Sequence record: NC_049918.1 | Origin: Escherichia phage ArgO145 | DNA: 62,020 bases | Direction: 5' to 3' (one strand) | Shown: one piece after another, positions 48,001-51,000 of the stretch | Position numbering within the stretch: position 1 is the first letter of the stretch | Layout: the number at the start of each line of letters is the position of its first letter | Made by a program: the position numbers

Positions 48001-51000
48001 TCGTTACTCTAATCAGAATGTAGGACTGGTGATCCGCAATGATAAAATTGAGGTTTATGACCAGAATGGACGACTGGCTGTTCGCATAGGCAGATTACGC
48101 TGATCAGGAGGTGAGTATTGGAATACGGTTTTGCCATTTATAACAGAAATAACGTTAATGTTACGGGCGTGCTGACTCCAGTATTTTTCCTGGACAGATT
48201 TACAGCGGAGTCTGGCTCAAAGACGTACACTAATAAACCCGACGGGAAATCATTGCAGGCTGTATGTTGTTTATTTCCCTGGAATAATGTATTTGCGGAT
48301 CGGAAAGTACCGAAGATAACCATTAATGACAATACGGTGACGTGGTCGAATCTTGAGCAGGGTATGGGATCTTATATTTATACATTCTGGGGATAAGTGT
48401 TATGTACGGTTTGAGCATTATGAAGCCGGATGGCAGCGTATGGATAAGTCCAGGTTTTACGCCGCAGTGTCTGATCAACAAAGGCACCATACCGGCGACT
48501 GAAAAGTCTTTTTTTAAAACATCAATCCCGTCAGGCAAAAGTTGTTTTTTCTTTATCAGAACAGAGAAGAAGGCCGATGTCATGTACACGCATGAACAGA
48601 TTGATGGATATCATGCACTAAGGCTTCATGTAATTGTCAGGGGAACGAACCCTGGTGTTACGACGGTTTATGCTTTCGCGAATATGGTTACTCCACCTTC
48701 TGAGTATGGTATCGCCATGTATAACCCGGACGGTGAGATGATTTATCATGGCGAAATGATGCTGCTTGACGCGAAGTTAATACCTGTTGATATCAAATTT
48801 GAAAAGGACCTTGGATATCCATGCGCAATCATGCCTGCACTGGTCGGGTATTATAACTGGAAAAGAACTCCTTATGATCGACCGATTTATACCACATCCA
48901 CTGGTGCTACAGGAAATAAAATATATTCCTGTGAGCATTATTCCGGTGGTGCAACATGGGATATTCGAAAGCCGTATATAGATAAGGTCCTGGTTATTAA
49001 TACATCAGTATATGATTAGTTGAAGCGAGTCTTTAATATTCATTTAAAATGTCTAAAAAGATGTATTATTAAAAAGTTTAGCGTGTTATCTGAATACAGG
49101 ATATCTTAAATGAAGAGTATAGCAACACTGGTTGTGTGTGCAATCTCCGGGATTGCCTGTGTAAATTTATCTGCACATGCAGCAGAAGGAGAGCATACAA
49201 TTTCTCTGGGGTATGCGCACTTTCAGTTTCCGGGACTGAAGGATTTTGTAAAGGATGCGACTGCTCATAACAGGGAGACTTTCAGTCATTTCGTCAACAG
49301 AAACTACTTTTCTTCATTGGGCGAATATACAGATGGTCGGGTCAGTGGATATGAAGGCAAGGATAAAAATCCACAGGGCATTAATATCAGGTATCGCTAC
49401 GAGATAACGGATGATTTTGGCGTTATCACCTCTTTTACATGGACGCGTTCTCTCACTAACTCACAGACATTTATTGATGTGCAGTCAGCCGATCATACCA
49501 GGAAGATTAAGAATCCGGCAGCTTCTGCCAGAACGGATATCAGGGCGAATTACTGGAGTCTGTTAGCGGGGCCTTCATGGCGGGTTAATCAGTACATGAG
49601 TTTATATGCGATGGCAGGGATGGGCGTTGCTAAAGTTAGCGCTGACCTGAAAATTAAGGACAATATTAACAGTAGTGGCGGATTTTCTGAAAGCAACAGC
49701 ACGAAAAAAACCTCCCTTGCGTGGGCTGCAGGTGCACAGTTTAACCTGAATGAGAGTGTTACACTGGATGTGGCTTACGAAGGTTCCGGCTCTGGCGACT
49801 GGCGCACGAGTGGCGTTACTGCTGGCATTGGCCTGAAATTCTGACCTGTATCCGGTAACCGTTTACTACCCGCTGTGATGGCGGGTTTTTTATTGCCCGT
49901 ACAGGGCAAAAACCGTAAATTATGCGTGGGTGCCTTTCGGCTGATGGCTGGAGGGTGAACCTGAAGGCCTGATGTGGAAAGGCCCCGAGTCAACTTAACG
50001 TTAACCCGAGGCCCTAACACTTCGTACCTTAAGCAAGTAGAAGGTTAGCGCCTCTCTGTAAAAGGAGTCAAGCGCTATGTCGCAAAAATCGCTTATCACC
50101 GTCACAATTTGCATGACGGTTATCTTCACCATCTGGATGTTGCACGGTTCACTGTGTGAGTTCCGGCTGAATTTGTGGGGAGCGGAGTTTGCGGCGTTCT
50201 TACAGTGTAAGCAGTAGGAAAACCGCGACGGGGACGAGAGTCCCCGTCAACTGGTTGCTGAGGTTCAGCCGATATGGCACCCGTTTCAGGTGAGAGAATG
50301 AACGATAAAATTCTCTGGTATATGCAGCGTGTTGTGAGAAATTCCCGCAACCCTGAATTTATGAATGAAGTTAAAGACGCCTGCCTTAAAAAGCAGGCGT
50401 TTTGTTTTGAGGCACCTGATGGCTTTTTGGTGCTGCGTTCTGTGCTCAGTGCTGATGGTATCCCTTATGTTCTGGTGTTGCTGGGCGTGTGTACGGGGAG
50501 TAACAGCGTTGAGCGTTACCTGCCGGAGGTGAAGACATTAACCCATCTGGCTGGCGGACGCTGGGCTGAGTTCCATACGGCAAGGCGGGGATTTATCCGG
50601 CTGGGAAAACGACTGGGCTTTGAGCGAATGCCGGATGATGAGGATGGCTTCATGGTGTTCAGGATAGCGGTCTGACTGCTACAGTTTTCATCATTGTGTT
50701 TAAACCAACATTGTAATTCACATTCTGACCCTGCTCCGGCAGGGTTTTTTGTTATCCAGGGGGCCATTATGGGTGGAAGTAAAGGCGGTGGTGATACCAA
50801 AGTAAAACCAACAGCAGCGCAAATAGCACAGGAAGAAGTGGCCTGGAAAGGGTGGCAGGATTACAAAAATATCCTCCGCCCGGCTGAAGATAACTTCATG
50901 GAAAAGGTCGATGACCTGAACAGTGAGCAGCAGTACGACAATATTGCTGGCACCACAAATCTGGGGTATCAGAAACAGTTTGGCGAAGCACGGAAGGAGC

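What the first reader, a model, noticed from the sequence alone, without database searches (positions are those of the whole stretch)
49893..50273. Hok/Gef-like small toxin ORF between lom and the virion genes
A 46-codon ORF with a good SD encodes a peptide with a transmembrane N-terminus and the SLCE(F)R...EFAAF signature of Hok-family type I toxins. It lies in a 380-bp intergenic region after the lom terminator, where a sok-like antisense RNA and mok-like leader could also be encoded.
Basis: partly seen in the sequence, partly recalled or inferred. Interest (0 to 1): 0.6.

Follow-up and report, generated by a model that had tools for sequence, protein, structure and literature searches.

The report
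Known Hok toxin with Sok antisense RNA
The small ORF is a real, already catalogued Hok-family membrane toxin of Shiga-toxin phages, and its antisense 'Sok' partner appears to be the RNA that was published, without this connection, as the phage 'microRNA' 24B_1.

Summary
Confirmed. Window 50077-50217 (+) encodes a 46-aa peptide that passes Pfam's Hok/Gef threshold. The window is a 933W-like Stx2a phage.

- **Already catalogued.** RefSeq names the ORF 'Hok/Gef family protein'. The identical peptide (72_1589) was cloned for the toxicity assays of a 2026 preprint, which reports 42 of 45 homologs toxic and does not list this one among the three that were not.
- **Not hokW-sokW.** That published locus lies elsewhere in 933W and is absent from this window.
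- **Module anatomy.** The surrounding 390 bp has the layout of a hok/sok module:
  - a 5' end (GGGUGCC) pairing with a 3' element (GGCACCC), each at an edge of cross-species conservation;
  - a buried start codon;
  - a protective 3' hairpin with compensatory changes;
  - an antisense promoter and hairpin giving a ~59-nt Sok-like RNA.
- **mok.** The mok frame is cut short in this copy.
- **Unrecognised link.** The 20-nt phage 'microRNA' 24B_1 maps exactly inside this Sok-like RNA, and its published promoter is the sok promoter.
  - The published 189-nt deletion removes the hok promoter, leader and sok.
  - The published primers for the 'overproducing' plasmid span the whole hok gene.
  - None of those papers mentions hok.

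As a toxin ORF this is ordinary. The 24B_1 link is the interesting part.

The parts
49868..49886 (+). lom intrinsic terminator hairpin, which marks the upstream boundary of the module
   Evidence: Found by the terminator scan. The conserved hok module starts just after it.
49893..49921 (+). Putative hok promoter: -35 TTGCCC (49893-98), 17-nt spacer, -10 TAAATT (49916-21)
   Evidence: Positions. The TTGCC and TAnnnT boxes are conserved at the same distance from GGGTGCC in diverged loci. The match is below the simple scan's 9/12 threshold. Inferred, not shown.
49928..50283 (+). Predicted full-length hok mRNA; both ends are inferred
   Evidence: The Rfam RF01794 alignment starts at 49928. Cross-species conservation begins at GGGTGCC and stops at GGCACCC. 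Fold energy is -155.4 kcal/mol, z -6.7.
49928..49934 (+). tac-like 5' element GGGUGCC
   Evidence: It pairs with 50276-50282 in the full-length fold, P(unpaired)=0.00. In the 3'-trimmed fold it pairs with 49976-49986. It is nearly invariant in 46 loci.
49938..49944 (+). 5' arm of the second long-range helix; it pairs with 50265-50271
   Evidence: The helix is kept by compensatory changes in the Citrobacter (L008) and S. diarizonae (L009) copies.
49974..50048 (+). 24-codon leader ORF (GTG..TAG), a shortened mok-like frame
   Evidence: It stops 31 nt before the hok ATG. Relatives have 61-79-codon frames from ATG +45 that overlap hok, or no such frame.
49976..49986 (+). ucb-like element GGAAAGGCCCC
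   Evidence: It pairs with the tac element once the 3' end is removed. It is conserved.
49977..50035 (-). Predicted Sok-like antisense RNA, about 59 nt, with a 5' single-stranded tail, a 16-bp hairpin and UUU
   Evidence: Fold energy -30 kcal/mol, z -5.5. The stem is conserved with antisense-specific G:U pairs and the 5' tail is variable. It overlaps the published '80-nt precursor' of 24B_1, whose primers map in phi24B to the equivalent of window 49953-50033.
50042..50071 (-). Sok-like promoter: -35 TTGACT (50071..50066), 18-nt spacer, -10 TAACCT (50047..50042)
   Evidence: Read from the minus strand. The -10 is invariant across loci. The same boxes were predicted independently as p24B_1 by BPROM in PMC4426718.
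49984..50003 (-). Published 20-nt RNA '24B_1' (TAACGTTAAGTTGACTCGGG), which is the loop plus 3' arm of the Sok-like hairpin
   Evidence: Exact single match in the window. The sequence and strand come from PMC4426718.
50013..50035 (+). Target of the Sok 5' tail (sokT-like hairpin and loop)
   Evidence: It forms a hairpin with an open loop at 50028-35 in the trimmed mRNA. It is the most variable segment among loci with an identical toxin: pi 0.30 against 0.029 in the CDS.
50062..50067 (+). hok Shine-Dalgarno AAGGAG, which overlaps the sok -35 on the other strand
   Evidence: It pairs locally with CUCU at 50054-57 in the full-length fold.
50077..50217 (+). hok-family toxin gene, 46 aa
   Evidence: Pfam PF01848 33.2 bits, above the cut-off of 22. 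phrog_251 85.8 bits. RefSeq WP_000078907.1 'Hok/Gef family protein'. The identical peptide is 72_1589 in the tested set of doi 10.1101/2025.08.07.668861.
50181..50197 (+). Downstream box inside the CDS that pairs with the hok start region 50077-50093
   Evidence: In the alignment this is a 16-pair helix that is 98.9% paired across 46 loci.
50227..50248 (+). 3' stem-loop GACGGGGAC/GUCCCCGUC, the likely stop for 3' exonucleolytic trimming
   Evidence: Two of its pairs show compensatory changes in 19 and 26 of the 46 sequences.
50276..50282 (+). fbi-like 3' element GGCACCC
   Evidence: It pairs with 49928-34. Homology between loci ends immediately after it.

Best explanation
Window 49893-50283 is a complete hok/sok-type type I toxin-antitoxin module carried as a moron behind lom in a 933W-like Stx2a phage.

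**Proposed mechanism**
1. The plus strand gives a ~355-nt hok mRNA. It is locked shut because its 5' end (GGGUGCC plus CGGCUGA) pairs with its 3' end (UCAGCCG plus GGCACCC).
2. The hok start codon is additionally buried by pairing with codons 35-41.
3. Slow 3' trimming back to the hairpin at 50227-50248 frees the 5' end. That end then pairs with GGAAAGGCCCC, and a target hairpin forms at 50013-50035.
4. A short unstable antisense RNA (about 50035..49977, minus strand) binds this target through its 5' tail. The duplex blocks the leader ORF and is probably cut by RNase III, so no toxin is made.
5. When antisense supply stops, the stable mRNA is translated. This could follow loss of the prophage, transcription shut-off, or override by late read-through on induction.
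6. The 46-aa peptide then inserts into the inner membrane and collapses membrane potential and ATP.

**Basis of each step**
- Shown here or in the literature: family membership; a small RNA exists on the antisense strand.
- Indirect: toxicity of the identical peptide. It was in the tested set and is not among the three reported as non-toxic.
- Inferred by homology with R1 hok/sok and from folds and conservation: the transcript ends, the trimming, the role of RNase III and the trigger.
- The published 20-nt RNA 24B_1 is, on this reading, a fragment of the Sok-like antitoxin.
For: **Toxin**
- Pfam HOK_GEF is above threshold. PHROG 251 matches. RefSeq names it Hok/Gef.
- All seven Hok-conserved residues are present (against the peptide, my reading).
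- The identical peptide was cloned and tested. The text says only three other sequences were non-toxic.

**Module limits**
- Conservation across 46 distinct loci begins at the promoter and GGGTGCC, and ends at GGCACCC.

**Structure**
- The full-length fold has z -6.7 with 5'-3' closure.
- The 3'-trimmed RNA refolds into a tac stem with an open target loop.
- The consensus structure is 99.1% paired, against 37-43% when partners are slid. Nine pairs show double-sided changes, against 4.2 in shuffles.
- The second 5'-3' helix is kept by compensatory changes in Citrobacter and S. diarizonae.

**Antisense RNA**
- The TTGACT/TAACCT promoter and the hairpin are conserved, and the G:U pairs work only on the minus strand.
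- 24B_1 reads map exactly there, and the published promoter boxes are the same.
- Hfq binds the 81-nt form with Kd 25 nM. The antitoxic activity of sokW was partly Hfq-dependent.

**Selection on the peptide**
- Twenty loci share the identical peptide but differ in DNA.
Against: - **mok is truncated.** No mok frame overlaps hok in this copy; the leader ORF stops 31 nt upstream. In R1, translation of mok up to the hok SD is required (PMC9841398). The toxin may therefore be poorly translated from its native mRNA.
- **Rfam is below threshold.** The sok model scores 35.6 bits against a gathering score of 59. hokW-sokW scores 113.5.
- **No terminator after the fbi element.** The nearest terminator-like site on the plus strand is at 50382-50399, so the 3' end is unproven.
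- **Weak promoter signal.** Neither promoter reached the simple scan's threshold.
- **Timing of 24B_1.** It was seen only 80 min after mitomycin C and not before. An antitoxin should be present in the lysogen, and sokW falls after induction.
- **Opposite phenotype.** The published deletion gave more and faster phage. Deleting hokW-sokW gave fewer and later phage.
- **Untested.** Transcript ends, RNase III dependence and killing from the native locus have not been tested.
Confidence: 0.85

Rival explanations
1. A decaying hok locus. The toxin frame is intact, but Hok cannot be translated from its own mRNA because the mok frame is cut short and the start codon stays buried. What remains active is the antisense RNA, which may have been co-opted for other regulation.
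For: - The leader ORF ends 31 nt before hok. Other copies end at -38 or have no leader ORF at all.
- In R1, stops in mok upstream of the hok SD abolish toxicity.
- Decayed copies do occur: L025 has lost its 5' end and L060 has a degenerate leader.
Against: - The 46-codon frame, the SD, tac/fbi, the AUG-burying helix and the 3' hairpin are all kept across species. Some changes are compensatory, and synonymous changes occur within the CDS.
- A ribosome stopping at UAG 50046-48 would sit on the anti-SD at 50051-57, so it could still open the SD (inference).
- hok has a strong SD of its own.
Confidence: 0.2
2. The published reading. The minus-strand RNA is the precursor of a microRNA-like, trans-acting 20-nt regulator (24B_1). 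It represses d_ant and sdhB, favours lysogeny and has nothing to do with a toxin.
For: - 2223 reads of one 20-nt species were found.
- The deletion and the multicopy plasmid gave opposite phenotypes.
- Binding to sdhB mRNA in vitro was weak, below 10% bound.
Against: - The RNA is perfectly complementary to the leader of a Hok-family mRNA and has Sok architecture.
- The 189-nt deletion maps to window 49877-50065. It also removes half of the lom terminator, the hok promoter, 138 nt of hok leader and most of the hok SD.
- The published plasmid primers span 565 bp, including the intact hok gene. The genetics therefore cannot separate the RNA from hok.
- The best trans site for the 20-mer in this phage is no better than for shuffled 20-mers: 12 of 40 shuffles did as well.
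- An ATP drop is what a Hok toxin is expected to cause (own knowledge of Hok-family toxins).
- The two readings are not mutually exclusive.
Confidence: 0.12
3. A chance ORF in an intergenic spacer with no function.
For: It is only 46 codons. The original 933W and phi24B records left it as hypothetical or unannotated.
Against: It passes the profile threshold, is conserved across genera, shows structural covariation, and a published toxicity test included the identical peptide.
Confidence: 0.01

Closest known systems
hok/sok of plasmid R1 (Gerdes paradigm; summarised in PMC9841398)
   Same: - Small membrane toxin with the SLCE.R...E.AAF core.
- 5' tac / 3' fbi fold-back.
- Refolding after removal of the 3' end.
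- Stable 3' hairpin.
- Short cis-antisense RNA with a single-stranded 5' tail plus hairpin, whose promoter overlaps the hok translation-initiation region.
   Different: - Only 30% identity over 44 residues, and 46 aa rather than 52.
- No mok frame overlapping hok in this copy.
- Where a long mok-like frame exists in relatives, it starts at +45. That is upstream of the Sok-complementary stretch rather than inside it.
- The locus sits in a phage late region, not on a plasmid.
hokW-sokW of 933W / Sakai prophage 5 (Takada et al. 2021, PMC8621323)
   Same: - Same phage group and same family.
- Shown to be a type I TA system whose antitoxic activity is partly RNase III- and Hfq-dependent.
- HokW is made after induction and helps phage release.
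   Different: - A separate locus: 933W 58460-58734 on the other strand, against 45.4-45.9 kb for this one.
- HokW has 51 aa and is 37% identical over 35 residues.
- It has an annotated mokW.
- Rfam scores it 113.5 bits, against 35.6 here.
- It is not present in this window.
Hok cluster 72, sequence 72_1589 (Escalera-Maurer et al., bioRxiv 10.1101/2025.08.07.668861)
   Same: The peptide is identical. It is listed as a high-abundance cluster representative and was cloned (pAZ3::72_1589) for the toxicity drop assay.
   Different: That study analysed only the coding sequence. It explicitly did not define Sok, Mok or the mRNA structure.
24B_1 'microRNA-size' RNA of phage phi24B (PMC4426718, PMC10732415)
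   Same: - Same DNA: the 20-mer is window 50003..49984 and its promoter boxes are the sok-like promoter.
- phi24B differs from the window at 4 of 456 positions here and encodes the identical Hok peptide.
   Different: - It is described as a trans-acting regulator processed from an 80-nt precursor.
- The words hok, sok and antitoxin do not occur in those two papers or in the 2025 review PMC12197685.
- The phi24B record annotates no gene between lom and vb_24B_43.
Chromosomal hokA-E of E. coli K-12
   Same: Same Pfam family. The best NCBIfam match is HokA.
   Different: The score is far below the HokA equivalog cut-off, 38.4 against 89 bits, so it is not an orthologue of any named K-12 hok.

Membership tests
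Hok/Gef toxin family (Pfam PF01848) | Matches the family profile above the curated threshold | tested here: met
   33.2 bits against a cut-off of 22, E 4e-8, covering residues 8-44.
Hok/Gef toxin family (Pfam PF01848) | Peptide of about 50 aa with an N-terminal hydrophobic helix and the residues conserved in more than 80% of Hok peptides (M1, C16, T18, L30, C31, E32, E41 of the logo) | tested here: met
   46 aa. By my alignment of the peptide to the logo, M1, C12, T14, L26, C27, E28 and E37 occupy those positions (sequence against logo; alignment A1).
Hok/Gef toxin family (Pfam PF01848) | Toxic when expressed | not testable with these tools
   The identical peptide 72_1589 was in the set of 45 tested. 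The paper says 42 were toxic and names three others as non-toxic. The individual result was not read directly.
hok/sok type I TA locus | Cis-encoded antisense RNA complementary to the toxin mRNA leader, with its own promoter | tested here: met
   A conserved minus-strand promoter and hairpin are present. Published reads of a 20-nt RNA map to that strand at 50003..49984. Antitoxin activity itself has not been tested.
hok/sok type I TA locus | Rfam RF01794 (sok) at gathering score | tested here: not met
   35.6 bits against 59, E 7.4e-6, full-length alignment 1-157. hokW-sokW scores 113.5. The model lies on the hok-sense strand in both loci.
hok/sok type I TA locus | Long-range 5' (tac) to 3' (fbi) pairing that closes the full-length mRNA, and refolding when the 3' end is removed | tested here: met
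   Predicted folds support it. The elements sit at the exact edges of conservation. The adjoining helix shows compensatory changes. This is prediction only.
hok/sok type I TA locus | mok reading frame overlapping hok and translationally coupled to it | tested here: not met
   This copy has only a 24-codon GTG ORF that ends 31 nt before the hok ATG. Frames of 61-79 codons that overlap hok exist in some relatives, and none at all in others.
hok/sok type I TA locus | Stable mRNA and unstable antitoxin; RNase III cleavage of the duplex; post-segregational killing | not testable with these tools
   This needs RNA half-life measurements, an rnc mutant and plasmid or prophage loss assays.
hokW-sokW of 933W/Sp5 | Same locus and sequence as the published system | tested here: not met
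   The published primers have no match in the window. hokW lies at 933W 58460-58615. Identity is 37% over 35 aa.
HokA (NCBIfam NF007290 equivalog) | Score at or above the equivalog cut-off | tested here: not met
   38.4 bits against 89. The Hok subfamily model NF007279 scores 22.7 against 73.

The most novel reading that the evidence does not exclude
**Main reading**
- The 20-nt RNA published as the first functional bacterial 'microRNA' (24B_1), and its 80-nt precursor, are the Sok-type antitoxin RNA of this hok locus and a cleavage or decay product of it.
- That product may come from RNase III cutting of the Sok:hok-mRNA duplex.
- The phenotypes assigned to 24B_1 are lysogeny bias, faster induction in the deletion and lower ATP with the multicopy clone. 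On this reading they are wholly or partly effects of removing or amplifying a hok/sok module, or of damaging the lom terminator.

**Second strand**
- Among loci with an identical toxin, the 22-nt Sok-tail target is about ten times more variable than the coding sequence.
- That would fit diversification of antisense specificity, so that many co-resident copies in poly-lysogenic EHEC do not cross-talk.
Probability: 0.6. Interest if true: 0.6.

Novelty: already known. Interest (0 to 1): 0.45.

Why it matters
**The toxin gene itself adds nothing new**
- Hok genes are abundant in EHEC prophages. Reported counts are 12-14 per O157 genome (PMC2887945) and up to 18.
- This one is annotated and was in a tested set.

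**The cross-reference does matter**
- Three papers build a model of a phage 'microRNA' that controls lysogeny and host energy metabolism. They use a deletion and a plasmid.
- Mapped onto this sequence, that deletion and that plasmid respectively delete and carry a toxin-antitoxin module that the authors did not recognise.
- If the RNA is a Sok antitoxin, those phenotypes need re-testing with hok-null controls.
- 933W-like Stx phages would then carry two different hok/sok systems. One was shown to speed phage release, while deletion of the other had the opposite reported effect.
- This is directly testable and bears on how Stx prophages are kept and induced.

Tried and rejected
**Is it hokW-sokW?** I first assumed the locus was the published hokW-sokW. 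I rejected this.
- The published primers have no match in the window.
- HokW is a different 51-aa peptide.
- In 933W it lies 13 kb away on the other strand.

**Other hok ORFs in the window.** I scanned all six frames with phmmer and a motif. There is only this one.

**Promoter and terminator scan.** The simple scan found neither promoter at its 9/12 threshold and no terminator after the fbi element. The promoters rest on conservation and on the independent BPROM call in PMC4426718.

**Canonical overlapping mok.** I looked for one and found none in this copy.

**Searches that failed or found nothing**
- A literature search for hok + 933W + lom found nothing.
- Searches for 24B_1 together with hok or toxin-antitoxin found only a mini-review that treats the two separately.

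**IPTG effect.** I considered whether the growth defect reported with IPTG for pUC18_24B_1 hosts could be Hok induction. By my recollection of the pUC18 polylinker (EcoRI nearest Plac), Plac would read the antisense strand. I make no claim from it.

**Trans targets of the 20-mer.** I tested whether it has an unusually good trans target in the phage. It does not.
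Full report
**What the window is**

- The first 25 kb are 100% identical to Stx2a-converting phages Stx2_09E025 and Stx2_EH2011.
- The 456 bp around the finding are 100% identical to 933W, VT2-Sakai/Sp5 and many other Stx phages.
- A similar stretch occurs in 1750 of 5426 complete E. coli genomes, in up to nine places per genome.
- Upstream lie a tail-fibre gene, two small membrane-protein genes and lom. Downstream lie genes of unknown function and a 2802-codon ORF.

**The observation**

- The ORF at 50077-50217 (+) has 46 codons and an AAGGAG box 9 nt upstream. Its peptide is MSQKSLITVTICMTVIFTIWMLHGSLCEFRLNLWGAEFAAFLQCKQ.
- The lom terminator is at 49868-49886.
- The peptide passes Pfam's Hok/Gef threshold: 33.2 bits against 22.
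- It matches phrog_251 'MokW-like host killing' at 85.8 bits.
- It falls well below the NCBIfam HokA and Hok-subfamily cut-offs.
- It is 30% identical to R1 Hok and 37% identical to HokW over the aligned parts.
- RefSeq annotates it as 'Hok/Gef family protein' WP_000078907.1. The original 933W record calls it L0129, hypothetical. The phi24B record annotates nothing there.

**It is not the published hokW-sokW**

- Takada et al. (PMC8621323) showed that hokW-sokW of Sakai prophage 5 is a type I TA system that helps phage release.
- Their primers encode a different, 51-aa toxin and have no match in this window.
- In 933W that locus is annotated at 58460-58734 on the other strand.
- This window holds only one hok-like ORF.

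**It is already catalogued**

- Fozo et al. counted 12-14 Hok genes in O157 genomes.
- Escalera-Maurer et al. (bioRxiv 10.1101/2025.08.07.668861) list the identical peptide as 72_1589. It represents a high-abundance cluster and was cloned as pAZ3::72_1589.
- They state that 42 of 45 tested homologs were toxic and name three others as the exceptions.
- They analysed only coding sequences and left Sok, Mok and the mRNA structure open.

**Anatomy from comparison**

- I collected 87 related loci from genomes and viral contigs.
- These reduced to 46 distinct mRNA-length sequences from E. coli phages, Salmonella, E. albertii and Citrobacter.
- Similarity starts at a TTGCC / TAnnnT promoter and an invariant GGGTGCC. 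It ends abruptly after GGCACCC, beyond which the flanks are unrelated.
- The 363-nt RNA 49928-50290 folds at -155.4 kcal/mol, z -6.7.
  - GGGUGCC pairs with GGCACCC.
  - 49938-44 pairs with 50265-71.
- When the RNA is cut back to the hairpin at 50227-48, three things happen:
  - the 5' end pairs with GGAAAGGCCCC (49976-86);
  - 50013-35 forms a hairpin with an open loop;
  - the hok AUG stays paired with 50181-97 in the MFE structure.
- A nascent-transcript fold also shows the 5' end pairing with the sequence just downstream. This resembles the metastable hairpin described for R1.
- RNAalifold recovers these helices.
- On the alignment, 99.1% of cells are paired, against 37-43% when partners are slid. 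Nine pairs change on both sides, against 4.2 in shuffles. The clearest cases are in the 3' hairpin.
- A caveat applies: the structure was derived from the same alignment.
- The tac/fbi helix never varies, so covariation says nothing about it.
- The adjoining helix is kept by compensatory changes in the Citrobacter and S. diarizonae copies.

**The antisense RNA**

- The minus strand carries TTGACT (50071..50066), an 18-nt spacer and TAACCT (50047..50042).
- These are followed by a ~23-nt tail, a 16-bp hairpin and UUUCC.
- Across 27 distinct versions the stem is conserved and contains G:U pairs that would be A·C mismatches on the sense strand. The 5' tail varies.
- The Rfam 'sok' model hits 49928-50090 at 35.6 bits, below its gathering score of 59.
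- The same model scores 113.5 bits on hokW-sokW.
- In both loci the hit lies on the hok-sense strand. The model therefore describes the hok leader, and this locus is a distant relative of its seed.

**mok**

- This copy has no frame overlapping hok.
- A GTG ORF (49974-50048, 24 codons) stops 31 nt before the hok ATG.
- Relatives with the same toxin have one of three states: a 61-79-codon frame from the ATG at +45 running into hok, a frame ending at -38, or none.
- In R1, mok must be translated up to the hok SD (PMC9841398).
- Either this copy is poorly translatable, or a ribosome terminating at UAG 50046-48 opens the adjacent anti-SD at 50051-57. The second is inference only.

**The link to 24B_1**

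- A search for papers mentioning both hok and lom led to the phi24B literature.
- Nejman-Falenczyk et al. (PMC4426718) found 2223 reads of one 20-nt RNA, TAACGTTAAGTTGACTCGGG, encoded on the minus strand between lom and vb_24B_43.
- They predicted its promoter as -35 TTGACT and -10 CGCTAACCT.
- The 20-mer matches the window once, exactly, at 50003..49984 (-). That is the loop and 3' arm of the Sok-like hairpin.
- Their promoter is the one I had inferred.
- In phi24B their '80-nt precursor' primers span 45661-45740, the equivalent of window 49953-50033.
- The homology arms of their deletion match window 49826-49876 and 50066-50116 exactly. The 189 nt removed are therefore 49877-50065. That stretch contains:
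  - half of the lom terminator;
  - the hok promoter;
  - hok mRNA +1 to +138;
  - the whole Sok-like RNA and its -10 box;
  - four of the six SD bases.
- The primers given for pUC18_24B1 span 565 bp in phi24B. The amplicon has no internal EcoRI or HindIII site and contains the intact, identical hok ORF.
- The 2023 paper nevertheless calls the insert 'the 189-nt region'.
- phi24B differs from the window at four positions in 456, three of them in the Sok-tail target.
- The 2015 and 2023 papers and the 2025 review do not contain the words hok or sok.
- The only paper in the searchable library with both 24B_1 and hok treats them in separate sections.
- The best trans site for the 20-mer in this phage is no better than for shuffled 20-mers: 12 of 40 shuffles did as well.
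- Hfq binds the 81-nt form. The antitoxic activity of sokW was partly Hfq-dependent.

**Points that do not fit neatly**

- 24B_1 and the RT-PCR product were seen only after induction. An antitoxin should be present in the lysogen.
  - Possible reasons are low library depth at time 0, genome amplification after induction, and RT-PCR that may also detect the sense strand.
  - None of these was tested.
- The deletion gave faster induction and more phage. That is the opposite of deleting hokW-sokW.
- The damaged lom terminator is a confound.

**Function**

- Family membership is firm. What the module does for the phage is not known.
- There are three candidates: prophage maintenance by post-segregational killing, help with lysis as shown for hokW-sokW, and exclusion of other phages as reported for R1 hok/sok.
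- The locus lies in the same orientation as the neighbouring tail-fibre and lom genes.
- Antiterminated late transcription could therefore run through it on the sense strand and override the sok promoter on induction. This is a hypothesis only.

**Verdict**

- The toxin gene is an ordinary, already annotated member of a well-known family.
- The added value is the detailed anatomy and the apparently unrecognised identity between the Sok-like RNA and the published 24B_1 RNA.

Noticed in passing
window 50013-50035: Among 20 loci that encode the identical Hok peptide, the 22-nt target of the Sok 5' tail has nucleotide diversity 0.30. The coding sequence has 0.029 and the 3' UTR 0.009. At least six different tails occur. 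This suggests diversifying antisense specificity.
   Followed up: partly
window 49877-50065 and 49765-50330: The published phi24B-delta-24B_1 deletion starts inside the lom terminator hairpin. The 2015 primers for pUC18_24B1 give a 565-bp insert that includes hok, although the 2023 paper describes the insert as the 189-nt region.
   Followed up: yes
window 50274-50675: The annotated downstream ORF probably starts at the ATG at 50298 rather than 50274. phrog_610 aligns only from residue 9. With the later start, the fbi element is intergenic.
   Followed up: partly
window 50377-50400: A terminator-like hairpin with T-runs on both strands lies inside the downstream ORF. It is the nearest candidate 3' end for hok transcription, about 100 nt past the fbi element.
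   Followed up: no
window 49928-50090; L090 411-585: Rfam RF01794 'sok' matches the strand that encodes hok, from mRNA +1 to the hok start, in both this locus and hokW-sokW. The model therefore represents the hok leader rather than the antisense RNA as transcribed.
   Followed up: yes
window 4059-4241 and 15762-15949 (-): There are two copies of a C4 antisense RNA plus isrK pair, both at Rfam gathering score.
   Followed up: no
window 25559-25807 and 27216-27475: Three tRNA genes are followed by STnc100 (+) and AsxR (-). This is the usual sRNA set around stx2 in these phages.
   Followed up: no
L003, L004, L006: Contigs labelled Xanthomonas pisi, a Planococcaceae MAG and Vagococcus sp. carry this enterobacterial hok locus at 76-100% protein identity. 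This is probably contamination or mis-binning.
   Followed up: no
L025, L060, L050: Three damaged copies were seen. L025 has its promoter and first ~40 nt of leader replaced by unrelated DNA. L060 has a degenerate leader (GGACACC). L050 has lost the last codon to a stop.
   Followed up: no
window 53465-61873 (+): A single 2802-codon ORF of unknown function (phrog_616) fills the right end of the window.
   Followed up: no
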